From sequence record OR352956.1: 64,000 nucleotides of DNA; one strand, 5' to 3'. Shown here in pieces: positions 26,042 to 48,518 of the stretch (the stretch's first letter is position 1; the number at the start of each line of letters is the position of its first letter). The stretch is from Escherichia phage AV126. Under the pieces are notes generated by a model. That model saw only the letters and a program-made list of their open reading frames with translations. It did not search any database and was not told the origin of the DNA. The position numbers and the translations under genes were made by a program.

Positions 26042-27016
26042 TTAAACAGCAGCTTCTTCTTTTTCAGGGAAGATAAAGCTTGCAATAACACCAAGAGCTA
26101 ATGTGCCTAGAACAATCATCAGACTTACGTTAGGGGAAATATCATGCGGGAGGAATGACCATTTGGCATGAAGTGTTTCACCGAACGGGTGATACATAAG
26201 TTTAGCACCAACAAACACCAGAACCACAGCAACAGCTTTCTCTAAGTGAACCAGATATTTCACAGCTACACTTAACACAAAGAAAAGTGCACGTAAACCA
26301 AGAACAGCCATCAGCATTGCAGAATAAACTAGCAGAGGTTCTTGTGTCACCCCGATCACAGCCGGAACTGAATCAAAAGAGAAGACAATATCTGTAAGCT
26401 CAATAACAAACACACAAAGAAGAGCAGGAGTTGCATATTTAATACCATTCTTAATGGTAATGAACTTTTCACCATCCAGTGCATTGTGCACAGGCAGAAC
26501 TTTACCTACTAAACGAACAGCCCAATGCTTAGAGTAATCAATATCCTCTTCTTCGTCACCACCTTTGATGATAGCCACGGCAGACCAGGCTACAATCAAA
26601 CCGAACAACACTTGGACCGACCAATGAAGGTTAAACAAAGCGGTGCCTGCTGCAACAAAAATACCTCGGAAGACAATGGCTCCTGCAATCCCCCAAAGTA
26701 AAATCTTATGTTGGAGATGTGTGCTCTTAATTCCAAAGCTTGCAAAAATTGCCATGAACACCATCAGGTTATCTACAGAAAGACTCTTTTCCAACACATA
26801 ACCACTTAGGAAAAGCGCGGCAAACTCTTTACCATGTTCTACCCAAATGAATGCGTAATATCCTAAAGCTAAAGCAATCCAAAAAACAGACCAAAGCAAA
26901 GCAGATTTAATTCCAATTTCTTTATTCTCTTTATGACCAAAGAAATCGATACCAATAGACAATGCCAAAATACCAACTAAAACAACTACATCAATAATTG
27001 GGAAACCGAGTTGCAT
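26042..27016 (-). CDS. terC: TerC-family integral membrane protein
   Basis: 324 aa, multi-pass; EKSLSVDNLMVF and SFDSVPAVIGVT motifs. Confidence 0.8.
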   Translation of the reverse strand: MQLGFPIIDVVVLVGILALSIGIDFFGHKENKEIGIKSALLWSVFWIALALGYYAFIWVEHGKEFAALFLSGYVLEKSLSVDNLMVFMAIFASFGIKSTHLQHKILLWGIAGAIVFRGIFVAAGTALFNLHWSVQVLFGLIVAWSAVAIIKGGDEEEDIDYSKHWAVRLVGKVLPVHNALDGEKFITIKNGIKYATPALLCVFVIELTDIVFSFDSVPAVIGVTQEPLLVYSAMLMAVLGLRALFFVLSVAVKYLVHLEKAVAVVLVFVGAKLMYHPFGETLHAKWSFLPHDISPNVSLMIVLGTLALGVIASFIFPEKEEAAV

Positions 27017-27033
27017 TCTTTTCTCCTCTCTTT

Positions 27034-27092
27034 GCGGGGAACTATTCCCCGCTTCATGTGATATATCTTACTCTTTTTAAGAACTATGTCAA
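27034..27092 (-). promoter_or_regulatory. promoter plus 5' hairpin cassette driving terC
   Basis: Minus strand TTGACA, 16 nt, TAAGAT, then GCGGGGAA-tag-TTCCCCGC and RBS; same design as island cassettes. Confidence 0.6.
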
Positions 27093-27095
27093 CAC

Positions 27096-27317
27096 TTATT
27101 TTGTTGAATGAGAGGAAAAGATTCCTCGTAATACAGCCAGAATAAACGAAACACAAACCACGGTCCAGAAGGTTACTGGGACAGTGATATCTGCATGACC
27201 CATAACTTCAGCAACATAGTTGTAAGCCAGCAACAGTAACCAAGCTGGAATCAAACTAAGCATAAAAGCAATAACAAAAAAGCTTACCACTGCAACAATA
27301 CCTGCAAAAACACCCAT
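27096..27317 (-). CDS. small membrane protein
   Basis: 73 aa, two hydrophobic helices. Confidence 0.45.
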   Translation of the reverse strand: MGVFAGIVAVVSFFVIAFMLSLIPAWLLLLAYNYVAEVMGHADITVPVTFWTVVCVSFILAVLRGIFSSHSTK

Positions 27318-27329
27318 ACTAATCTCCTC

Positions 27330-27815
27330 TTAAAGTTTATAAATAGTCACATCGTGACCAGCTTTTACTAAAGTTTCTTTGATCATGACTTCAATGATAG
27401 CCCAATTACCTCCAGCATGACCTGCACCTATCATAGGTAGACCAATCTTATGTGCTGGCTGATCTCCTTTATCGTAATTGTGTAAGTCCATTGCCATAGC
27501 TGCAAGAGCATCATACAGCGCATCATAATCTAGTTGACGACCTTTACTATTGTATCCATAACGATACTGTCCATAAAGGTTGTATACCATAGGGTTAGGA
27601 TAATCTTCTGGTTCCCCTAAACTAAAAGAACCAAGCTTTTTCTGGTTTCCTGCTCCTGTAGCTAAATCTGCTTCGTATGCATATGGAAACGCATATTTTA
27701 TTTGTGGGGCAATGCCTGCCCCCATATTACACATACAGTTGCAACAATGAGCAATAACAGTTACTTCACCTGCTTTAGCGGCATCAATAAGATTACCTGT
27801 TTTCATTTTAAGCAT
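27330..27815 (-). CDS. macro-domain protein (ADP-ribose binding/hydrolase)
   Basis: Start re-set to ATG after RBS AAGGAG; VIAHCCNCMCNMGAGIA resembles macro VNAAN...GGGV motif. Confidence 0.7.
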   Translation of the reverse strand: MLKMKTGNLIDAAKAGEVTVIAHCCNCMCNMGAGIAPQIKYAFPYAYEADLATGAGNQKKLGSFSLGEPEDYPNPMVYNLYGQYRYGYNSKGRQLDYDALYDALAAMAMDLHNYDKGDQPAHKIGLPMIGAGHAGGNWAIIEVMIKETLVKAGHDVTIYKL

Positions 27816-27828
27816 TTTTAGCTCCTTA

Positions 27829-28656
27829 TTACAGAATGTGTTGTTTTGTGTAACGATCCAAGAATTCAAAGTTTTCAGCATACTTTGCAATCCGATTGTA
27901 GCCTTCAGCTAAACAGCCGAAGAAAAGTTGTTCCACATAGTAGTGTGGCAATTGGCTAAGAATGATTTTGAAGTCTTCATGATTTTGGCCCATAAGATAC
28001 TTAATAGGACGAACAAGGCACTGTGCATCACGTTCTTCATTAATCATTTTAACAAACGCTTCTGGTGTATTAATGTAGTTAAAATTCAGTTTAGCTTCAG
28101 TATCTGCTTGATTACCTTCGTATTTTGCAAAATACAAGAAGTAAACATCATTTTTAACTTGATTTTCATCAAGAATCTCAATCAGTTTGTCTTCATGCGT
28201 TCCGGTGATATTTACATCATCAATGAACACCAACTTCTTATCACCCCAGAATTCTTTGTTGCAGTAGAATGTATCCCCATCAATAAGTTTCTTACGACTA
28301 GCTTTATCCAAGAAGCCATAATCGTTAATATAACTAACTTTACGATGAATAATATCCAGTTCTGCTGAACGACCTTGATCATATTGTGCTTGCAACATAT
28401 TAAAGTAATTAATAAAATGATCTGTCATCATTGTTGCAGCATTATGCACATGGTTATAAGGAGAAGGAATGATAACAAATTGTTCCCCAATATGTTTCAT
28501 TGCCACTTGAGCAAAAAACTGAAGTGCCAATTCTTTACCCATACGACGCGCAGCTTGGTTACTGCCAAATTTCAATTTTGAATAATCTTTGATATCAAAA
28601 GTAGCAGTTTCCAGGTCATCAAATTTATTTGCAAAAATTTGAGTTTGATTACGCAT
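27829..28656 (-). CDS. phosphoribosyltransferase-domain protein
   Basis: 275 aa; KKLVFIDDVNITGTHE matches type I PRTase PRPP-binding motif. Confidence 0.55.
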   Translation of the reverse strand: MRNQTQIFANKFDDLETATFDIKDYSKLKFGSNQAARRMGKELALQFFAQVAMKHIGEQFVIIPSPYNHVHNAATMMTDHFINYFNMLQAQYDQGRSAELDIIHRKVSYINDYGFLDKASRKKLIDGDTFYCNKEFWGDKKLVFIDDVNITGTHEDKLIEILDENQVKNDVYFLYFAKYEGNQADTEAKLNFNYINTPEAFVKMINEERDAQCLVRPIKYLMGQNHEDFKIILSQLPHYYVEQLFFGCLAEGYNRIAKYAENFEFLDRYTKQHIL

Positions 28657-29305
28657 TTACAATTTCTCCTCTTTTAAGTTTCTCTAGTAAGTCGTTAGGG
28701 TTCTTAATATGACAGAAGTTAATCCCTATGTCAACACATTTTCCATCAAATTCTTCGCTGTCCCCAACATGTAAAATCTCTTCAGCCTTCAAAGGAATGC
28801 TTGAATATGTGGCGGTCCTAACAAAGAATCTAGGATCTGGTTTACACAACAGATGTTCGTCTGAAAAATGCATAAATTCAAAACAATTCCAACTGTCAAA
28901 CATACAAGCACGACGCAAAATATCCCCAGATATAAAATTAGTATTGCTTTTAATACTAAGATCATATTTACCAGACAAGTATAGCAAACAAACTGGCAAA
29001 TCTAAAGCAATATGTGGAGGAAATTTAAGAAACCATTGCTCACACTCAAAACGCATTTGTGCAGATTCTACAGGGGTTAAACCTATCTTTCTTCCCAACA
29101 TATTCCATGCATATGCTACACCTTCTGCACACCCATTTAGTGCAGCATTATCCATAATTTCTTTGGCATCTTTATAGGCTTCTTTTGCGGCACGTTCAGA
29201 CATTCTACCATATGTGGCAATAGTGTGCGTACGTGCATCTGCATAGTTTTGATTGGCAGAAATAAGAGTATTCCATACATCAAAAGAGATATGTTTTATT
29301 GTCAT
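28649..29305 (-). CDS. HAD-superfamily hydrolase (putative)
   Basis: Start re-set to MTIKHISFDVWNTL (HAD motif I-like); C-terminal HVGDSEEFD (motif IV-like). Confidence 0.5.
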   Translation of the reverse strand: MTIKHISFDVWNTLISANQNYADARTHTIATYGRMSERAAKEAYKDAKEIMDNAALNGCAEGVAYAWNMLGRKIGLTPVESAQMRFECEQWFLKFPPHIALDLPVCLLYLSGKYDLSIKSNTNFISGDILRRACMFDSWNCFEFMHFSDEHLLCKPDPRFFVRTATYSSIPLKAEEILHVGDSEEFDGKCVDIGINFCHIKNPNDLLEKLKRGEIVNA

Positions 29306-29306
29306 A

Positions 29307-29912
29307 TTAGGCCCACCATGCATCAAGATTTAAGTTACTATCTACCACAACTTGTTCTATGTGGTAGCCTTTTATCTGTATCCCACTGTTTAAGAGCATA
29401 TCATATGCTTCATTGAAACGCAACTTATCTTCTGCGGAATATAAGCGAGCATTATAAAATCGGTAATCAATTTCTTCAACATTAGAAGAAATACGGAAGA
29501 AGTTTGTTTCTACTTCAGGATCACTTGCTGAAGTCTTAATGTGAACTTCTCCATAATTTTCTTTACTTAGATCCATGAAAAGAACACAGGCAACATGTTT
29601 AAACATTCGTTCCAGTTTGTAACGAACAACATTGAAACCTGCATTCTCAAGTTTCTCTACACATTGCAACATTAACGTAGTGTCGAGATCGCTTTGATAC
29701 TTTGTTAACATACGATCACGTTGAGACTTTGTATCCCGATGTAAATCAATTGTTGTGCATTTGGCACCAATGATCTTAGCTGCTTTCATCAACTCTTCAG
29801 AACTAACGTTAGATAAAGTAAGATGAAAATGGGCTTTCCACACTTTTTTAGCAGGAATGCCAAAAGATTTATCCCCGCTATTTGGCATGTTAACTACTAC
29901 ACTATGTTGCAT
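29307..29912 (-). CDS. hypothetical protein
   Basis: 201-aa ORF; HFHLTL is a possible H-x-T-x motif, unverified. Confidence 0.45.
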   Translation of the reverse strand: MQHSVVVNMPNSGDKSFGIPAKKVWKAHFHLTLSNVSSEELMKAAKIIGAKCTTIDLHRDTKSQRDRMLTKYQSDLDTTLMLQCVEKLENAGFNVVRYKLERMFKHVACVLFMDLSKENYGEVHIKTSASDPEVETNFFRISSNVEEIDYRFYNARLYSAEDKLRFNEAYDMLLNSGIQIKGYHIEQVVVDSNLNLDAWWA

Positions 29913-29927
29913 TACTTATCTCCTCAC

Positions 29928-30119
29928 TTAAAATGGAAGTCTTTGAAGTTCATCTCCTCCGATATCAAGTAATTTAGCAACATCTCGATCAGAAAGCAAC
30001 TCTTTTCTTTGTAAAATATCTACAAGGGTTGCAAGAATATCCTTAACGTCCCGATCACTGTTCTTCAAAAGTTCTCCTGCCGTCCCTACCCTATCTCCTA
30101 CAGCAAAATATGTAACCAT
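29928..30119 (-). CDS. hypothetical small protein downstream of nrdG
   Basis: Start re-set to ATG after RBS AGGAGG; 63 aa. Confidence 0.4.
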   Translation of the reverse strand: MVTYFAVGDRVGTAGELLKNSDRDVKDILATLVDILQRKELLSDRDVAKLLDIGGDELQRLPF

Positions 30120-30132
30120 AAAACCTCCTAAG

Positions 30133-30603
30133 TTAATCTGATTGCCAACCACTTGCCGTTTTGGTCCATAATCTTTGATTATCTGACCCTCTGAAAGGTT
30201 TTGTAGTTGGATTGTTTATTTCATACTTTCCGTCTACAATAATGTCAACAAGATTTTTAATATACAAAGGCACTTCCTCAAAAGTATATCCTGTATACAC
30301 CATTATATCTTTGCTTGACCCATAAACGTCTCTAACCTTTTCTATAAGGTTTTTAACATTGTAAATATTCTGCGGATCTAATGGCTCTCCTCCTAAAATT
30401 GTTAAACCTTTTACAAACGGTCTTGACAAATCTTTTAAAACTTGCTCTACATTTTCGTGAGTGAACGGTTTCCCATAAGAATAAGACCAGGCTTTTTGGT
30501 TAAAACAGCCACGACAACCGTGGCTACAACCACTAACCCAGAGGGAGCACCTAACTCCCTCACCATTAATAAGATCTACAGGTTCATATCCTGCAAAATT
30601 CAA
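30133..30603 (-). CDS. nrdG: anaerobic ribonucleotide reductase activating protein (radical SAM)
   Basis: 156 aa; CSHGCRGC; N-terminus collinear with E. coli NrdG. Confidence 0.9.
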   Translation of the reverse strand: MNFAGYEPVDLINGEGVRCSLWVSGCSHGCRGCFNQKAWSYSYGKPFTHENVEQVLKDLSRPFVKGLTILGGEPLDPQNIYNVKNLIEKVRDVYGSSKDIMVYTGYTFEEVPLYIKNLVDIIVDGKYEINNPTTKPFRGSDNQRLWTKTASGWQSD

Positions 30604-32414
30604 AGATGTTTCTCCCTTTGCAAAACTTCCTGCATTTTACCTTTGTTGTAAGGCCGTGAATTAGGGGCAGAAAGATACCCTGATACACGTCTAACTACAG
30701 AAATAGTTTCTTCTTCATGGTTGCCACAATCAGGACACTCAAACCCTTTAGCCGTTGCCTTAAATTCTCCATGAAAACCACACTTAAAGCATTGATCCAC
30801 GGGCTGATTAATACCAAAATAGTGAATATGTTCATAAGCGTAGTCTACTAAAGTCTCCAAAGCTTCTAAGTTATTCTTTAAGTTTGGTGTTTCGACATAA
30901 CTTATGTTACCACCATTGCTAATCTGTGCAAAACCTGCTTCATAATCCCATTTTTCAAAAGGATTTGTTACCAACCAAACAGGTTGATGAAAAGAGTTAG
31001 TAAGATAGTCTCTTTCTACCAAACCTGGGTATTTTTCATTTAAAGCTGTTGCAAACTTATAGCACAAAGATTCTGCTGGAGTTCCATAGAGACTAAACGC
31101 CAGGTTAGATCGTTCTTTAAACACAGCACACACATCTTTCATATGTTGCAGAATGTTTTTACCAAGTTCCTTTTTATCTTTTTCTTCTGGATAAAGGATT
31201 TCCAAAGCTTCGGCAAGACCTACATAACCAATACTAATAGAAGCATAACCACCTTCAAACAAAACACCAATTTCATCATTGGCATTTAAACGCGCTAAAG
31301 CCCCTTCCATGAAAAGAATAGGGTTTTCAGATGCTTTGGTATGTCTGATACGGTTTACACGTAGCATGTGAGCATCGTAGGCTATCTCCATATGTTTATT
31401 AAGAAGATCGGTGAAAGATTCTCCTTTACTTCTCGCTTCCGCAGCAATCAGTGGCAAATTGATAGAAACTACTCCAAGGTTGAATCGTCCATCATATTTT
31501 TCTCCTTGTTCGGTGGCATAGTACGACAAAAAGGAACGACAACCCATACTCGTAACAGTACCATCTGCTGATCCCGTAACTTCTTTGTTCAAAGGAACAG
31601 AAATAAAGTCTGGATAAATACGATCAGCACAACATGCCAAAGCTTGTTGCTTAAGGTCATAGTTAGGATCACTAGGTTTCATGTTAACACCTTCTTGTAA
31701 AAAGAAAATAACTTTAGGGAATACAGGCGTTACATGATCTTTGCCTAGACCATTACTATGCACTTTAAGATAGTTAGCTGTGATCATTCTGCCAAAAACA
31801 GAGGTATCCAGACCCATACTGATTGTAATAAAAGGAGATTGTCCATTTACACTCATTAAAGTATTAACCTGATACAAGAGAGTTTGCATAGCATCATATA
31901 CATCTTGTTCGGTCATTTCCAGGGCTTCTTTCCTTGCATAACAGCCGTAGCGACGTTTGGTTATCTCCATGTTTTTAAGGAAACTAGCTTCAACATAAGG
32001 ACTAAGACCTTTATCAATGTGCGCACACGTTTGACCTCCATACTGACTGGAGGCAACAGCTTGAATGATTTGAGTTAGCACTGTAGTAGCTACCCCAATA
32101 GATTTTGGTTTTTCTATCTGTGCGGCTCCGATCTTAAAACCATTCTCTAACATATCTTGATAATTAACAAGACAACAGTTTGTAAGAGGAGAGAGCAGAT
32201 AATCCAAGTCGTGAATATGCCCAAAACCTTCTGTATGCCATTCTGACAAGTTTTTTGGCAGTATCTGTGTCATTGCCATATGTTTGCTTAAAATCCCCGC
32301 CAAGAGATCCCTATGCGTGTTAACGAGGTGGGAAGGTTTGTTTGCATTCTCTCTAGTGTATGTTTCTGAAGTGCGATCTAAAAAAGAAAAAACATCTTGG
32401 TACAAATCTTTCAT
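30600..32414 (-). CDS. nrdD: anaerobic ribonucleoside-triphosphate reductase
   Basis: 604 aa; C-terminal Zn ribbon CFKC...CPDC and glycyl-radical RVSGYL; ATGA overlap with nrdG. Confidence 0.9.
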   Translation of the reverse strand: MKDLYQDVFSFLDRTSETYTRENANKPSHLVNTHRDLLAGILSKHMAMTQILPKNLSEWHTEGFGHIHDLDYLLSPLTNCCLVNYQDMLENGFKIGAAQIEKPKSIGVATTVLTQIIQAVASSQYGGQTCAHIDKGLSPYVEASFLKNMEITKRRYGCYARKEALEMTEQDVYDAMQTLLYQVNTLMSVNGQSPFITISMGLDTSVFGRMITANYLKVHSNGLGKDHVTPVFPKVIFFLQEGVNMKPSDPNYDLKQQALACCADRIYPDFISVPLNKEVTGSADGTVTSMGCRSFLSYYATEQGEKYDGRFNLGVVSINLPLIAAEARSKGESFTDLLNKHMEIAYDAHMLRVNRIRHTKASENPILFMEGALARLNANDEIGVLFEGGYASISIGYVGLAEALEILYPEEKDKKELGKNILQHMKDVCAVFKERSNLAFSLYGTPAESLCYKFATALNEKYPGLVERDYLTNSFHQPVWLVTNPFEKWDYEAGFAQISNGGNISYVETPNLKNNLEALETLVDYAYEHIHYFGINQPVDQCFKCGFHGEFKATAKGFECPDCGNHEEETISVVRRVSGYLSAPNSRPYNKGKMQEVLQREKHL

Positions 32415-44894: not shown

Positions 44895-46355
44895 GTGCCA
44901 AAAATAGTCACTTGGGAACAATATAAAACAGATATAAAACAAGCTTATCAAGGTAAGTCTTGGACTGTTGTAGATTATATTGAGCCGTGGAACGGCAATA
45001 AAACTAAACTTAGATGCATCTGTGCTCTGCATGGAGAATGGAAAACAACAAGCATAAATACCGCTAAACTAGGGAGGGGTTGTCCAGAATGCGGTAGGGA
45101 GATTATAAGTAAAGCAGTATCTATAAACAAATCAAAAACCTGGGAGCAATATAAAGAAGAAGTGCAAACCGCTTACAATCAGGCAGGTAAGTTTTGGACT
45201 GTTACAGGATGGCACGGAGAATGGAAAGGATGGAATACTAAACTGGTTTGTTGTTGTGCTTTACATGGGGAGTGGAGGTCTACTTCTATATCTTCTGCGA
45301 AAAACGGGAGTGGATGCAGGAAGTGTATGGGAGAAGCAAACAGAGAAAGAACATCGATTGCATGGGAGAAACATAAAGAAGAAGTAGAAGAAGCTTATAA
45401 AGAAAAACCCTGGATTGTTAGAGGCTATGTGGAACCGTGGAACGGTTCCCGCACTAAGTTGATTTGTGAGTGTAAGGTTCATGGTCAATGGTGCACTACC
45501 ACTGTAAACAGTGCTAAACAAGGGACTGGATGCTACAGTTGTCAAAGAGAAATGACGAAACAAAGGAATACAATGGAGGATAAACAACATGTTGAAGATT
45601 TTATAAAAGCTTGTCCTGATAATGTAGAGCGTAAATATTATCGTAGCGATAGAGTAGATAGATTAGGTCGTCAGGTTTACTGGATTGTAGAATGTCCTAT
45701 ATGTGCAGAGGATGATTATTGTAAAGAAGGCTTATGCGATAATAAATTTGAGATGAAGATGAGTCATTTGAAAAGGGGTGGCCTTCCTTGCCGTTGTTCT
45801 AAATATTATCATTACACTCCTGAACAATGGGCCTACCGTATGACCAAAGCTTGCCAGGAACGAGGGGATCAATTTATAGGATTCATTGATAAGGTAAGCA
45901 ATAACAGCAAGTTTAAATATCTATGTAGGGAGCATGGAGAGCAAACGATCACACCTACCGATTATCTCAATGGGAAAGGTTGTCCAGGCTGTAAGAACAG
46001 AAATATGCAAGAATTTTACATCAATATTATTCTTGATGAGTACGGAGAAGACACGGGAGCTTACAAGTTGGGGATTGCAAAGGACAGTGATATCAGGATC
46101 AAAGGGCAGAATGCAAACAACAATTACTTTATGCGCCGTATAGCATTGTTCGATCTGCCGTCCTACCAAGCTTGCAGGGCGTTAGAGAGTAAGCTAAAGT
46201 CTAAGACTGATCAGATTCTACCGTCTATTGGCTGTGTAGAACGCTTGCACATGAAAGATGGTCATAGTGAAACCTTCCTGCGCGAGGATTTGGCTATCGT
46301 CTTAAGTGCTATCAACCAAGCAGGTGGAATAATGAGAGAGGAGGAAACATGTTAG
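44895..46355 (+). CDS. zinc-ribbon repeat protein
   Basis: 486 aa; three tandem ~70-aa units each with C-x-C...HGxW...SAK-x-G-x-GC-x2-C; probable GTG start. Confidence 0.55.
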   Translation: MPKIVTWEQYKTDIKQAYQGKSWTVVDYIEPWNGNKTKLRCICALHGEWKTTSINTAKLGRGCPECGREIISKAVSINKSKTWEQYKEEVQTAYNQAGKFWTVTGWHGEWKGWNTKLVCCCALHGEWRSTSISSAKNGSGCRKCMGEANRERTSIAWEKHKEEVEEAYKEKPWIVRGYVEPWNGSRTKLICECKVHGQWCTTTVNSAKQGTGCYSCQREMTKQRNTMEDKQHVEDFIKACPDNVERKYYRSDRVDRLGRQVYWIVECPICAEDDYCKEGLCDNKFEMKMSHLKRGGLPCRCSKYYHYTPEQWAYRMTKACQERGDQFIGFIDKVSNNSKFKYLCREHGEQTITPTDYLNGKGCPGCKNRNMQEFYINIILDEYGEDTGAYKLGIAKDSDIRIKGQNANNNYFMRRIALFDLPSYQACRALESKLKSKTDQILPSIGCVERLHMKDGHSETFLREDLAIVLSAINQAGGIMREEETC

Positions 46356-46714
46356 TTGACGTTCAAATTATGCGCAACGAAAGAATGGACTTCTTTGAAG
46401 CAGTAGAGAAACATCTGATCCGATGGGACTATGAATTTGTTCCTGCTGGATGTGGACCAGTAGAGCATTTAGCGGAAGACGACGATGTATACATGATCAT
46501 TCGTCAAGTGTACCAGACAGACCAGTGTGAAGAAACTCCCGAACTGATTTTGTTTGAGTGTAAAGATCTTGCAAAATATTTTGACTATGGCGGAAAAGAG
46601 GGTCATAATCTCTCCAGATACAATAAACGTCTACTTATCTTAGACTACATGCGGAACAACAAACACAAACTCATCGACGCAGACGCAGTTTATGGCTACT
46701 GGTGGATGGACTAA
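46349..46714 (+). CDS. hypothetical protein
   Basis: 121-aa ORF. Confidence 0.5.
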   Translation: MLVDVQIMRNERMDFFEAVEKHLIRWDYEFVPAGCGPVEHLAEDDDVYMIIRQVYQTDQCEETPELILFECKDLAKYFDYGGKEGHNLSRYNKRLLILDYMRNNKHKLIDADAVYGYWWMD

Positions 46715-46727
46715 CAAAGGAGAAACT

Positions 46728-46907
46728 ATGGCACGTTTAGCAGATCATGAAATCTTTAAACCTATTCTGAACCACTATGATGAACTTAAAGCAGTGTTGG
46801 ATTGTTATAGAGAGGATGAAGAACGTTTGGAAGTCAATCTTAAGATAGTTCTGATGAAAGCTTTTCAAGACGGGCAAGCTAAAGTTTTAGAAGGCATGAA
46901 AAAATGA
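46728..46907 (+). CDS. hypothetical small protein
   Basis: Start re-set to MARLADHEIF after RBS AAGGAGA. Confidence 0.5.
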   Translation: MARLADHEIFKPILNHYDELKAVLDCYREDEERLEVNLKIVLMKAFQDGQAKVLEGMKK

Positions 46908-47446
46908 GAATAACTGATGAATATGTATTCTTCTTTTCACATAAAGATGTGTTTAGTAATTGGTATATTGCACCCTTTACAGAAACTGAACTAGGTTACA
47001 ATGAGACTTTCTGTTGTGTTGAGCAATATATGATGTGGCGTAAGGCTTTGCTGTTCAAGGATCATGCGATTGCAGCAGCTATCCTTGATCACTCAACTAT
47101 ACGTGACAACGAGAGGAAACAAGCATACTACAAACGTATGGGTCGAGCGGTATCTGGTTTTAATAATGATATGTGGGAAGAGAACCGTGAGCGTATTGTT
47201 ATGCGAGGCTTATGCTTGAAATATGTACAGAATCCAGATTTGTATGCAGACTTACACCTTTACCAATACAAAACGTTTGTTGAAGCAAGCCCCTACGATA
47301 AGGTTTACGGAATTGGAATGGGGATGTATGAACCAGGGGTGCTAAACCCTGCTACCTGGAAAGGGCAGAATCTTTTAGGCAAATATCATAATAAACTGAT
47401 CGAAATACTTTTCCCAGACAAAATACCGCAAAGACGATATTTGTGA
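46904..47446 (+). CDS. NADAR-domain protein (YbiA-like)
   Basis: 180 aa; FSNW, VEQYMMWRKALLF, KRMGRAVSGF, VEASPYDKVYGIGMG collinear with E. coli YbiA. Confidence 0.75.
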   Translation: MRITDEYVFFFSHKDVFSNWYIAPFTETELGYNETFCCVEQYMMWRKALLFKDHAIAAAILDHSTIRDNERKQAYYKRMGRAVSGFNNDMWEENRERIVMRGLCLKYVQNPDLYADLHLYQYKTFVEASPYDKVYGIGMGMYEPGVLNPATWKGQNLLGKYHNKLIEILFPDKIPQRRYL

Positions 47447-47536: not shown

Positions 47537-47685
47537 GTCCTATACAAACCCTTGTCTTTTTCAGTTTGCATCACTAGGATTCGATCTGAGTGGGTTCCTG
47601 AAGGTCTGCCAATAAGATTAAAGGTTATCTCAAATTCCCACTACCTATTATCTCAAAAATCCCTCAAATTATTTAAACTTTTTAA

Positions 47686-47870
47686 GAATTTACAAAAGTG
47701 AAAGTTGAAAACCAAAATTTAAAGTTTAGGAAAAATTATCTTAGAATGTTAGATACAAACAAAACTCAAAAGTCAAGGAAAATTTTAAAAATTTTGCGCG
47801 CCCACAGTATTTAAAGTTTTTTTGCTTTTACAAAAATGAAAGTACAAAAGCAAAATTTAAAGTTTACAAA
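47686..47870. repeat. two imperfect ~45-bp direct repeats
   Basis: TTTACAAAAGTGAAAGTTGAAAACCAAAATTTAAAGTTTA (47686) vs TTTACAAAAATGAAAGTACAAAAGCAAAATTTAAAGTTTA (47818). Confidence 0.6.
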
Positions 47871-47914
47871 AATTTATGCAGGTGGGAATGAGAAGAGTTC
47901 TCATGTGGAAATGC

Positions 47915-47993
47915 AAATGATAATGATTCGCATTTAAGTTTATAAACGAGATTGATTCTTATTCAATAAGGTAAATGATAATCATTCTCATTT
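47915..47993. promoter_or_regulatory. two Fur-box-like motifs
   Basis: AAATGATAATGATTCGCATTT (47915-47935) and AAATGATAATCATTCTCATTT (47973-47993) vs consensus GATAATGATAATCATTATC. Confidence 0.4.
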
Positions 47994-48251
47994 AGAGAAT
48001 GACGCGCAGGGGCGGTGTTTGTCTCGCGCTCCCGTGTCCCCTCGCCATGTAATAAGAATAACAGATCCAACCAGGAAAGCAAGCGATTATTTTATCTTTA
48101 CATTTCTTTACAAATATATAGCGCCCAGCCTACCGGCGATCAACCTTCCAACCAGCGCCCCTGGTATGTTAGCCCCGCCTTTACGCCGTGGGGTGGCGCT
48201 TCCTCTTCTGTATGTAAAACAGTATAAGCCCGATCCCTGGGCTTGTCAAGA

Positions 48252-48518
48252 TTATTTTTTGTTTTCTTGCCAGGATAGGACACCTAACCAAAAATGCATA
48301 TCGCCCCGCGCCGCTGGCGGGATCTTGCTTTCCCCGCCGCCACTGCAAGCCCATAAATAACCATCAGCAAACGGATCAAAATGTTCTATCTCTTCCACTT
48401 TATGATCGCCCAGGTTGAGAACGGTTTCAACCTTTAAGCCCGTTGCGCTTGCTACCTGGTGCACCGTGCCGCCTTGCCAGCCCAATGAGTGCATAAGGTG
48501 TAATGTAGTATTTGTCAT
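48252..48518 (-). CDS. hypothetical protein (uncertain)
   Basis: 88-aa ORF in GC-rich non-coding-looking stretch; weak RBS. Confidence 0.25.
   Translation of the reverse strand: MTNTTLHLMHSLGWQGGTVHQVASATGLKVETVLNLGDHKVEEIEHFDPFADGYLWACSGGGESKIPPAARGDMHFWLGVLSWQENKK

What the first reader, a model, noticed from the sequence alone, without database searches (positions are those of the whole stretch)
46904..47446. NADAR-domain protein, giving the phage two ADP-ribosylation-reversal enzymes
The 180-aa protein is collinear with YbiA-type NADAR domains (FSNW, EQY, MGR, ASPYD...GIG). NADAR enzymes can remove ADP-ribose from guanine in DNA, the modification made by DarT toxins. Together with the macro domain at 27330-27815 this suggests defence against host ADP-ribosylating toxin or defence systems.
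Basis: partly seen in the sequence, partly recalled or inferred. Interest (0 to 1): 0.6.

Follow-up and report, generated by a model that had tools for sequence, protein, structure and literature searches.

The report
Phage NADAR enzyme, likely anti-DarT1
This phage gene encodes a well-conserved NADAR enzyme whose counterpart in a sister group of phages has already been shown to strip toxic ADP-ribose marks off DNA and defeat the bacterial DarTG1 defence, so it is a real but largely expected counter-defence gene.

Summary
The ORF at 46904-47446 (+, 180 aa) is real and is a clear NADAR domain (Pfam E=3.9e-35; AF2 pLDDT 95; Foldseek TM 0.79 to the ADP-ribose-bound Phytophthora NADAR 8BAU). The window is a phAPEC8-like E. 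coli myovirus (Phapecoctavirus). The gene is the syntenic counterpart, 55% identical, of bas60_0111 in phage PaulScherrer (Bas60). That is the only NADAR gene I found in Bas60-62, so it should be the published AdfN^Bas60, which neutralises DarT1 and rescues phages on DarTG1 hosts. All ADP-ribose-contacting residues are kept, including the Glu (E127) that separates this type from DarG1 (Asp) and T4 AdfN (His). dN/dS is 0.08. The "riboflavin N-glycosidase" and "GTP cyclohydrolase II" labels do not discriminate. The second enzyme is also real: the 27330-27815 ORF is a macrodomain, 39% identical to T4 Tk.4/AdfM (anti-DarTG2). The two genes are 19 kb apart on opposite strands. In passing: an unannotated, phage-specific intergenic element lies just downstream, with a conserved sigma-70 promoter and a Fur-box-like palindrome. 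I could not explain it.

The parts
46904..47446 (+). NADAR-domain gene (180 aa), a predicted AdfN-type ADP-ribosyl-guanine glycohydrolase. Predicted ADP-ribose-contacting or catalytic residues: E40, K47, R81, W91, R95, E127, D132.
   Evidence: ORF. Pfam NADAR E=3.9e-35. AF2 pLDDT 95.2 and pTM 0.88. Foldseek to 8BAU TM 0.79 and to YbiA 2B3W TM 0.69. 55% identity to bas60_0111, taken to be AdfN^Bas60. Invariant residues. dN/dS 0.08.
44895..46907 (+). Three upstream ORFs whose ends overlap or nearly abut: 44895-46355 (486-aa CapR-repeat 'endonuclease'), 46349-46714 and 46692-46907. The last stop codon overlaps the NADAR start (ATGA), so they are probably co-transcribed and translationally coupled with the NADAR gene. 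Functions unknown.
   Evidence: ORF coordinates. The ATGA overlap is read from the sequence. CapR repeats in Pfam. PHROG 681 'endonuclease' and two unknown-function PHROGs. The same gene order is annotated in phAPEC8_ev052.
27330..27815 (-). Macrodomain gene (161 aa from the ATG; 186 aa if the upstream TTG at 27890 is used), of the Tk.4/AdfM, SCO6735 and DarG/TARG1 class.
   Evidence: Pfam Macro 20.7 bits, just under the cut-off. PDB hits 5E3B 3.3e-12, 5M31 3.9e-5, TARG1 2e-3. 39% identity to T4 Tk.4 at E=2e-21. PHROG 335. Homologues in 2297 phage records.

Best explanation
The gene encodes an orphan, stand-alone NADAR ADP-ribosylglycohydrolase of the AdfN kind. After infection of a host carrying DarTG1, the DarT1 toxin attaches ADP-ribose to the N2 amino group of guanines in phage single-stranded DNA and blocks replication. 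The phage NADAR binds the ADP-ribose through K47, R81, W91, R95 and D132, and positions the distal ribose with E40 and E127. It then hydrolyses the ribose-guanine bond, releasing ADP-ribose and restoring normal DNA. Shown here: domain identity, fold, conservation of every ADP-ribose-contacting residue, purifying selection, and a syntenic relationship (55% identity) with bas60_0111. Inferred: that bas60_0111 is the tested AdfN^Bas60 (it is the only NADAR in those phages), the catalytic activity itself, the DarT1 target, and expression during infection. Because it has Glu rather than Asp or His at the hallmark position, it probably also removes cytidine-linked ADP-ribose and acts on RNA, as other Glu-type NADARs do. 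The separate macrodomain gene (AdfM-like) probably covers thymidine-linked ADP-ribose made by DarT2.
For: NADAR domain. Confident model that superposes on ADP-ribose-bound 8BAU. Residue mapping from the 8BAU alignment onto the residues listed by Schuller 2023: E40=E43, K47=K50, R81=R79, W91=W89, R95=R93, E127=E125, D132=D130. E40, K47, W91, E127 and D132 are invariant and R81 is nearly invariant in 67-69 homologues. The equivalent Glu is essential in SCO5665. The gene sits at the same genome position in Justusliebigvirus and is 55% identical to bas60_0111. AdfN^Bas60 neutralises DarT1 without other phage factors and rescues RB69, T5 and Bas25 on DarTG1 hosts, but not T5 on DarTG2. All four NADAR families tested hydrolyse G-ADPr in vitro. 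dN/dS is 0.08.
Against: There is no experiment on this protein or this phage. AdfN^Bas60 was tested only by ectopic expression, not by deletion in its own phage. I could not read the paper's accession table, so bas60_0111 = AdfN^Bas60 rests on it being the only NADAR found there. 45% of residues differ from bas60_0111. Pn W133 is Tyr (Y135) in both phage proteins. E. coli YbiA and T4 AdfN hydrolyse G-ADPr in vitro yet fail to protect cells from DarT1 on their own, so in vitro activity does not guarantee in vivo protection. The protein also passes the curated cut-off of TIGR02464, the riboflavin-intermediate N-glycosidase model. Expression timing is unknown, and no convincing promoter or terminator was found next to the gene.
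Confidence: 0.7

Rival explanations
1. The main physiological target is not DarT1-modified guanine. It is another ADP-ribosylated nucleic acid, such as cytidine-linked ADP-ribose, ADP-ribosylated RNA, or the product of a defence or toxin ART not yet described. Anti-DarT1 activity would then be a side activity of a broad-range enzyme.
For: Glu-type NADARs (the 'NADAR' and YbiA families) remove both G-ADPr and C-ADPr from ssDNA and ssRNA, whereas the Asp-type (DarG1) and His-type (T4) remove only G-ADPr. Our protein has the Glu (E127). The closest bacterial relatives are orphans with no adjacent DarT. The family occurs in 718 phage records across hosts as different as Staphylococcus, Listeria, Bacillus and Prevotella.
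Against: AdfN^Bas60 fully neutralises DarT1 and restores titres on DarTG1 hosts. No cytidine- or RNA-directed ART defence system that this family reverses has been shown in E. coli.
Confidence: 0.17
2. It is a small-molecule N-glycosidase like E. coli YbiA. It would clear reactive riboflavin-pathway intermediates or another ribosylated metabolite during infection and would have no role in defence evasion.
For: TIGR02464 'riboflavin biosynthesis intermediates N-glycosidase' scores 114.8 bits against a cut-off of 73.7. Many records annotate the gene as 'GTP cyclohydrolase II / COG3236' or 'YbiA-like N-glycosidase'. The protein is 30% identical to YbiA with the same Glu hallmark.
Against: The same model scores bas60_0111 (AdfN^Bas60) at 109.4 bits and a stand-alone Burkholderia NADAR at 171 bits, so it does not discriminate. 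The 180-aa protein has no GTP cyclohydrolase domain. No riboflavin gene lies in the neighbourhood. A profile of the clade prefers 8BAU over YbiA, 124 against 64 bits. YbiA itself also hydrolyses G-ADPr.
Confidence: 0.08
3. It reverses or limits ADP-ribosylation carried out by the phage's own transferase, in a self-regulating role comparable in spirit to the T4 Alt/ModA/ModB host take-over, and does not counter a host toxin.
For: The only support is general: large myoviruses can encode ARTs (T4 alt lies near 30.3), and NADAR and macrodomain genes co-occur with NAD-related genes in some phages (one search shows macrodomain genes next to ribose-phosphate pyrophosphokinase in Vibrio phages).
Against: No ART was seen among the ORFs examined near either gene. 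AdfN^Bas60 works in uninfected cells against a host toxin. I did not screen the whole phage genome for ARTs.
Confidence: 0.05

Closest known systems
AdfN^Bas60, taken here to be gene bas60_0111 of Escherichia phage PaulScherrer (Justusliebigvirus); Johannesman et al. 2025, PMC11825919
   Same: Phage-encoded orphan NADAR in the same subfamily (Stephanstirmvirinae), at the same genome position: after a large phi92_gp222-like gene and before the conserved intergenic element and a small reverse ORF. 55% identical over the whole domain. Same Glu hallmark, same Tyr in place of Pn W133, and the same extra loop between helices 2 and 3.
   Different: 45% of residues differ. Bas60 has a 7-residue insertion near residue 27 and a different C-terminal tail. 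Two small ORFs sit between the large upstream gene and the NADAR in this phage, but not in phi92-like phages. The protein studied here has never been tested.
AdfN^T4 (T4 gp30.3) and T4-like phage NADARs
   Same: Orphan phage NADAR consisting only of the core domain, with no N-terminal extension. Proposed role as an enzymatic anti-DarTG1 factor. T4 also pairs it with a macrodomain (AdfM/Tk.4), as this phage does.
   Different: Only 19% identical. T4 has His at the hallmark position where ours has Glu, and it is not matched by TIGR02464. AdfN^T4 needs a T-even context for full activity and cannot remove C-ADPr.
Stand-alone 'NADAR family' enzymes: Phytophthora nicotianae NADAR (PDB 8BAU) and S. 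coelicolor SCO5665
   Same: 8BAU is the best structural and profile match (TM 0.79; 124 bits). The Glu hallmark and all ADP-ribose contacts are conserved. These enzymes hydrolyse G-ADPr, and SCO5665 also C-ADPr, on DNA and RNA.
   Different: Cellular rather than viral, only 28% identical, with physiological substrates still unknown. Pn NADAR has its own N-terminal and internal extensions.
E. coli YbiA (PDB 2B3W; TIGR02464)
   Same: Same fold (TM 0.69), same Glu hallmark, 30% identity, and a score above the TIGR02464 cut-off.
   Different: YbiA is a housekeeping gene in a LexA-controlled operon with dinG and ybiB. It is characterised as a riboflavin-intermediate N-glycosidase and does not protect cells from DarT1. 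It lacks the ~11-residue 'GIGxGxxDPxxxDP' segment present in our clade.
DarG1 (DarT1-associated BC4488-type NADAR antitoxin)
   Same: Same superfamily and the same proposed chemistry, removal of ADP-ribose from guanine N2.
   Different: DarG1 uses Asp, not Glu, carries an N-terminal beta-beta-alpha extension, and is encoded next to DarT1. A profile of our clade does not reach the G. lovleyi DarG1-type structures even at E<=10.

Membership tests
NADAR superfamily (Pfam PF08719) | Sequence match to the family model above the curated threshold | tested here: met
   121.9 bits against 35.1, E=3.9e-35, covering 152 of 163 profile positions
NADAR superfamily (Pfam PF08719) | YbiA-like alpha-helical core fold | tested here: met
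   AF2 model pLDDT 95.2. The only significant Foldseek PDB hits are 8BAU (TM 0.79) and YbiA 2B3W (TM 0.69).
NADAR superfamily (Pfam PF08719) | Conserved ribose-positioning Glu and phosphate-binding Lys (E88/K95 of E. coli C7 NADAR; E43/K50 of Pn NADAR), plus the other ADP-ribose contacts | tested here: met
   E40 and K47 are invariant in 67-69 homologues. R81, W91, R95 and D132 align to Pn R79, W89, R93 and D130. Pn W133 is Tyr135 here.
AdfN (phage anti-DarT factor NADAR) | Orphan NADAR encoded by a lytic phage, with no adjacent DarT | tested here: met
   Phapecoctavirus genome. The neighbours are a CapR-repeat protein and small unknown ORFs.
AdfN (phage anti-DarT factor NADAR) | Homology to an experimentally validated AdfN | tested here: met
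   55% identity, E=3e-66, to bas60_0111 at the same genome position. That gene is the only NADAR found in Bas60-62, so it is taken to be the validated AdfN^Bas60. The paper's accession table was not readable.
AdfN (phage anti-DarT factor NADAR) | Removes ADP-ribose from guanine in DNA, neutralises DarT1, and restores phage growth on DarTG1 hosts | not testable with these tools
   Needs biochemistry and phage genetics. Known only for the 55%-identical relative, and there only by ectopic expression.
YbiA-type riboflavin-intermediate N-glycosidase (TIGR02464 equivalog domain) | Score above the curated model cut-off | tested here: met
   114.8 bits against 73.7. However, the model also accepts bas60_0111 (AdfN^Bas60) at 109.4 bits and other stand-alone NADARs, so it does not define function.
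YbiA-type riboflavin-intermediate N-glycosidase (TIGR02464 equivalog domain) | Fusion to or genomic association with riboflavin genes (RibA/RibD), or the LexA-controlled dinG-ybiB context | tested here: not met
   The protein is a single 180-aa domain. No riboflavin, dinG or ybiB genes lie in the neighbourhood.
DarG1 / BC4488 NADAR antitoxins | Catalytic Asp replacing the hallmark Glu | tested here: not met
   Glu127 in V-E-ASPYD, invariant in the clade.
DarG1 / BC4488 NADAR antitoxins | N-terminal beta-beta-alpha extension, and adjacency to a DarT1 gene | tested here: not met
   The NADAR match begins at residue 11 and the model shows only one short N-terminal strand. There is no DarT neighbour.
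T4-like phage NADARs | His at the hallmark position | tested here: not met
   Ours has Glu where T4 gp30.3 has His ('KHSI') in alignment A1. Overall identity is 19%.
AdfM / Tk.4-like phage macrodomains (for the ORF at 27330-27815) | Macrodomain homologous to T4 Tk.4 and to the DarG macrodomain | tested here: met
   39% identity over 124 residues, E=2e-21, to T4 Tk.4. PDB 5M31 DarG macrodomain E=3.9e-5 and 5E3B E=3.3e-12.
AdfM / Tk.4-like phage macrodomains (for the ORF at 27330-27815) | Protects the phage from DarTG2 by removing thymidine-linked ADP-ribose | not testable with these tools
   For T4 there is genetic evidence only, in a preprint. Nothing is known for this phage.

The most novel reading that the evidence does not exclude
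Because it carries the Glu-type active site, this Stephanstirmvirinae NADAR could be a broad-spectrum eraser that removes ADP-ribose from both guanine and cytosine, on DNA and on RNA. That would differ from the guanine-only T4 and DarG1 enzymes. Together with the AdfM-like macrodomain (thymine), the phage would then be protected against base ADP-ribosylation on three of the four bases, including by ART defence systems not yet discovered. The wide spread of this clade in phages of Staphylococcus, Listeria, Bacillus, Enterococcus and Prevotella would point to such systems being common well beyond E. coli DarTG1.
Probability: 0.3. Interest if true: 0.5.

Novelty: new member of a known kind. Interest (0 to 1): 0.27.

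Why it matters
It transfers an experimentally grounded function (AdfN, anti-DarTG1) to a gene that most of the sampled Phapecoctavirus records label 'hypothetical' or, wrongly, 'GTP cyclohydrolase II', and that PHROGs still lists as unknown. These phages are used against pathogenic E. coli (APEC, ExPEC, STEC). Knowing that they probably carry both a NADAR and a macrodomain eraser helps predict their host range on DarTG-bearing strains. Conceptually it adds little: the phage-NADAR counter-defence idea, and the NADAR-plus-macrodomain pairing, are already published for Bas60-type phages and for T4.

Tried and rejected
(1) 'GTP cyclohydrolase II' annotation: rejected. The protein is a single NADAR domain, and the label is a known carry-over from RibA-COG3236 fusions.

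(2) TIGR02464 as evidence for riboflavin metabolism: rejected as non-discriminating, because the model also accepts bas60_0111 (AdfN^Bas60).

(3) NF053876 'DS32_2 NADAR anti-phage protein': 15 bits against a cut-off of 240, so not a member.

(4) A NADAR-macrodomain operon: rejected. The genes are 19 kb apart on opposite strands.

(5) Phylogenetic placement against DarG1 and Bas32-type NADARs: I could not obtain those sequences. The supplementary tables of PMC11825919 are not held, and the clade profile did not reach the G. lovleyi DarG1-type structures at E<=10.

(6) Promoter and terminator scan around the gene: no more sites than in shuffled sequence, so it says nothing about expression timing.

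(8) Downstream element: tRNA scan and Rfam at gathering and E-value thresholds found nothing. Single-sequence folding z-scores were only -1.5 and -1.7. RNAalifold on both strands gave almost no covariation. An origin-of-replication reading gets no support from GC skew, which turns at about 41 kb where gene orientation switches. Three literature searches found no description of it.

Full report
OBSERVATION. An ATG-initiated ORF of 180 codons lies at exactly 46904-47446 on the + strand. Its start codon overlaps the stop of the preceding small ORF (ATGA, read). That ORF and two further upstream ORFs (44895-46355, 46349-46714, 46692-46907) overlap or nearly abut, so the NADAR gene is probably the last cistron of a four-gene block. 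The quoted motifs (FSNW, EQY, MGR, ASPYD, GIG) are all present. Pfam assigns a full-length NADAR domain at E=3.9e-35 and 121.9 bits against a cut-off of 35.1. A profile search of every six-frame ORF in the window finds no second NADAR.

WHERE THE WINDOW COMES FROM. The 4 kb around the gene is 98-99% identical to many phAPEC8-like E. coli myoviruses of the genus Phapecoctavirus, subfamily Stephanstirmvirinae. In those records the gene is called 'hypothetical protein', 'GTP cyclohydrolase II' or 'COG3236 / GTP cyclohydrolase II'. PHROGs places it in phrog_1017, 'unknown function'.

WHAT THE PROTEIN IS. AlphaFold2 with a 67-sequence alignment gives a very confident model, pLDDT 95.2 and pTM 0.88. 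Foldseek against the PDB returns only two significant hits. The first is the Phytophthora nicotianae NADAR bound to ADP-ribose (8BAU; TM 0.79, E=2.4e-9). The second is E. coli YbiA (2B3W; TM 0.69).

I combined the phmmer alignment to 8BAU with the residue list in Schuller et al. 2023 (PMC11543638). The ADP-ribose contacts map as follows: E40=E43, K47=K50, R81=R79, W91=W89, R95=R93, E127=E125 and D132=D130. Pn W133 is replaced by Tyr135. E40, K47, W91, E127 and D132 are invariant and R81 is nearly invariant across 67-69 homologues.

E127 is the hallmark position. It is Glu in the YbiA and stand-alone 'NADAR' families, Asp in DarT1-associated DarG1, and His in T4-like phage NADARs. The equivalent E167 of SCO5665 is essential for activity. 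Alignment A1 shows Glu in our protein and in E. coli YbiA, and His in T4 gp30.3. A profile of our clade scores 8BAU at 124 bits and YbiA at 64 bits, and does not reach the DarG1-type structures even at E<=10. The protein has no N-terminal extension. The gene is under strong purifying selection: dN/dS is 0.08 at dS 0.73 against the phiWec181 allele.

THE KEY COMPARISON. Johannesman et al. 2025 (PMC11825919) showed that T4 gp30.3 (AdfN^T4) and two unrelated phage NADARs, AdfN^Bas32 and AdfN^Bas60, counter DarTG1. AdfN^Bas60 neutralised DarT1 in uninfected cells. It restored RB69, T5 and Bas25 to full titre on DarTG1 hosts, and it did nothing against DarTG2.

Bas60-62 are phi92-like phages, now the genus Justusliebigvirus, which is the sister genus of Phapecoctavirus. 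Phage PaulScherrer carries locus tags 'bas60_', and its gene bas60_0111 is annotated 'putative YbiA-like N-glycosidase'. The same gene is present in EmilieFrey (Bas61) and JohannJBalmer. My tblastn search found one NADAR per sampled phi92-like record, so I take bas60_0111 to be AdfN^Bas60. The paper's accession table was not available to confirm this.

That protein is 55% identical to ours over the whole domain, E=3e-66. It sits at the same genome position: after the large phi92_gp222-like gene, and before a long non-coding stretch and a small reverse ORF. The window gene is therefore the Phapecoctavirus counterpart of an experimentally validated anti-DarT1 factor. That validation was by ectopic expression only, and no deletion in the native phage was reported.

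THE RIVAL ANNOTATION. NCBIfam TIGR02464 ('riboflavin biosynthesis intermediates N-glycosidase') scores 114.8 bits against a cut-off of 73.7. As a control I scanned bas60_0111, YbiA, a Burkholderia stand-alone NADAR and a Klebsiella phage NADAR. All four pass (109-171 bits), and only T4 gp30.3 does not. The model therefore recognises Glu-type NADARs in general and cannot separate a housekeeping glycosidase from an anti-DarT1 enzyme. No riboflavin gene lies nearby, and the protein has no cyclohydrolase domain. YbiA itself removes G-ADPr in vitro.

THE SECOND ENZYME. The ORF at 27330-27815 (- strand) is only marginal in Pfam: Macro at 20.7 bits against a cut-off of 22. Even so, it clearly matches solved macrodomains: SCO6735 (5E3B, E=3.3e-12), the T. 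aquaticus DarG macrodomain (5M31, 3.9e-5) and TARG1 (2e-3). It is 39% identical (E=2e-21) to T4 Tk.4. A 2025 preprint renames Tk.4 AdfM and shows it is needed for T4 growth on DarTG2 hosts.

The macrodomain gene sits 19 kb away on the other strand. Its block also holds NrdD/NrdG, two unknown ORFs, a ComF-like PRTase (PF15610), a small membrane protein and TerC. A metabolic role for it, acting on ADP-ribose derivatives, cannot be excluded.

MECHANISM AND ITS LIMITS. Most likely (confidence 0.7), the protein hydrolyses the bond between ADP-ribose and guanine N2 on phage ssDNA modified by DarT1, which restores replication. Mikolcevic et al. 2026 (PMC12945103) found that Glu-type NADARs also remove cytidine-linked ADP-ribose and act on RNA, whereas DarG1 and T4 AdfN do not. 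A broader substrate range is therefore a live possibility for this enzyme.

The closest bacterial relatives (44-49% identity) are orphans. One is in a prophage-like Burkholderia region and one is stand-alone in a myxobacterial MAG; neither has a neighbouring ART. The family occurs in 718 phage records, including large myoviruses of Staphylococcus, Listeria, Bacillus and Enterococcus.

NOVELTY. The kind (AdfN) is published, and a syntenic counterpart in the sister genus has been tested. No paper I could find discusses the Phapecoctavirus gene. I rate it a new member of a known kind, of modest interest.

NOTICED DOWNSTREAM (not part of the finding). About 800 bp separate the NADAR stop codon from the next gene, a small reverse ORF. 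The 5' part holds an AT-rich 75-nt direct repeat. It also holds three palindromes spaced 29 nt apart, the last of which is the only match to the E. coli Fur-box consensus in the whole window (3 mismatches; 0.05 matches expected by chance).

The last ~280 nt (47975-48252) are about 92% identical between Phapecoctavirus and Justusliebigvirus, and nearly identical over the last ~150 nt, although the adjacent NADAR proteins are only 55% identical. The differences there include small indels, so the stretch does not code for protein. The element is found in 231 phage records spanning Stephanstirmvirinae and Vequintavirinae (Seunavirus, Certrevirus, Mydovirus). It is absent from 5,426 complete E. coli genomes, and its core matched only one contig among 185,579 representative genomes.

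In all 27 distinct copies, a -35 hexamer (TTGACA, TTGACG or TTGCAA) and a -10 hexamer (TATACT, CATAAT, TATATT or TATAGT) on the minus strand keep a 17-18-nt spacing, while the spacer sequence varies. That argues for a real sigma-70 promoter reading into the conserved core. A Fur-like box with at most 4 mismatches is present in 17 of 27 copies; the chance rate is about 0.0015 per element.

No Rfam family or tRNA matches, and covariation is too weak to establish an RNA structure. It could be a phage non-coding RNA, an iron-responsive sense/antisense RNA pair, or a DNA-level element. I could not decide between these.

Noticed in passing
window 47975-48252 (core about 48085-48215); also L003:6085-6369, L007:1490-1790, L012:375-680 and others: Unannotated intergenic element, about 92% identical between Phapecoctavirus and Justusliebigvirus and still 72-77% identical in more distant Klebsiella-phage and Vequintavirinae copies. 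It occurs in 231 phage records, is absent from E. coli genomes, and has no Rfam or tRNA match. A minus-strand sigma-70 promoter (-35 at 48249-48244, -10 at 48226-48221) keeps its hexamers and 17-18-nt spacing in all 27 distinct copies, while the spacer varies. Covariation is weak, with one clear R-Y compensatory pair, so no RNA structure is established. It is a candidate new phage ncRNA or a DNA-level element.
   Followed up: partly
window 47887-47994: Three palindromes spaced 29 nt apart (AATGAGAAGAGTTCTCAT, AATGATAATGATTCGCATT, AATGATAATCATTCTCATT). The last is the only hit to the Fur-box consensus GATAATGATAATCATTATC in the 64-kb window (3 mismatches, 0.05 expected by chance). A Fur-like box is kept in 17 of 27 related elements. 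In 15 of 27 copies (all the Vequintavirinae-type copies except Ro1) it overlaps a possible + strand promoter, TTGAAT-18-CWGAAT. This suggests iron-responsive control by the host Fur protein in a lytic phage.
   Followed up: partly
window 47665-47739 and 47803-47877: An AT-rich 75-nt direct repeat (81% identity) carrying promoter-like TTTACA-18-CAAAAT motifs. It is partly conserved in phage PaulScherrer. Function unknown.
   Followed up: no
window 26042-32414 (- strand): Gene block: NrdD (30600-32414), NrdG-like radical-SAM activase (30133-30603), two ORFs with no Pfam match (29307-29912, 28649-29326), a ComF-like PRTase PF15610 (27829-28656), the macrodomain (27330-27815), a 73-aa membrane protein (27096-27317) and TerC (26042-27016). 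The PRTase-macrodomain-TerC adjacency suggests an alternative, metabolite-processing role for the macrodomain. In some Vibrio phages the homologous macrodomain gene sits next to a ribose-phosphate pyrophosphokinase gene.
   Followed up: partly
window 44895-46355 (+): A 486-aa protein with five CapR-homology zinc-ribbon-like repeats (Pfam PF21817; PHROG 681 'endonuclease'). It heads the four-ORF block that ends with the NADAR gene. Its function, and any link to the NADAR, are unknown.
   Followed up: no
public records matched (e.g. MG065639 'Campylobacter phage A150', OP562383 'Acinetobacter phage vB_AbaM_ABPW7'): Several records labelled as Campylobacter or Acinetobacter phages are 98-99% identical, over the stretches compared here, to E. 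coli Justusliebigvirus or Phapecoctavirus genomes. The host labels are probably wrong, or the samples were contaminated.
   Followed up: no
window 48252-48518 (-): An 88-aa reverse ORF (PHROG 19316, unknown function) is the only minus-strand gene in a long run of + strand genes. Its stop codon directly abuts the conserved minus-strand promoter and hairpin of the intergenic element. The corresponding position is empty in Certrevirus phages.
   Followed up: no
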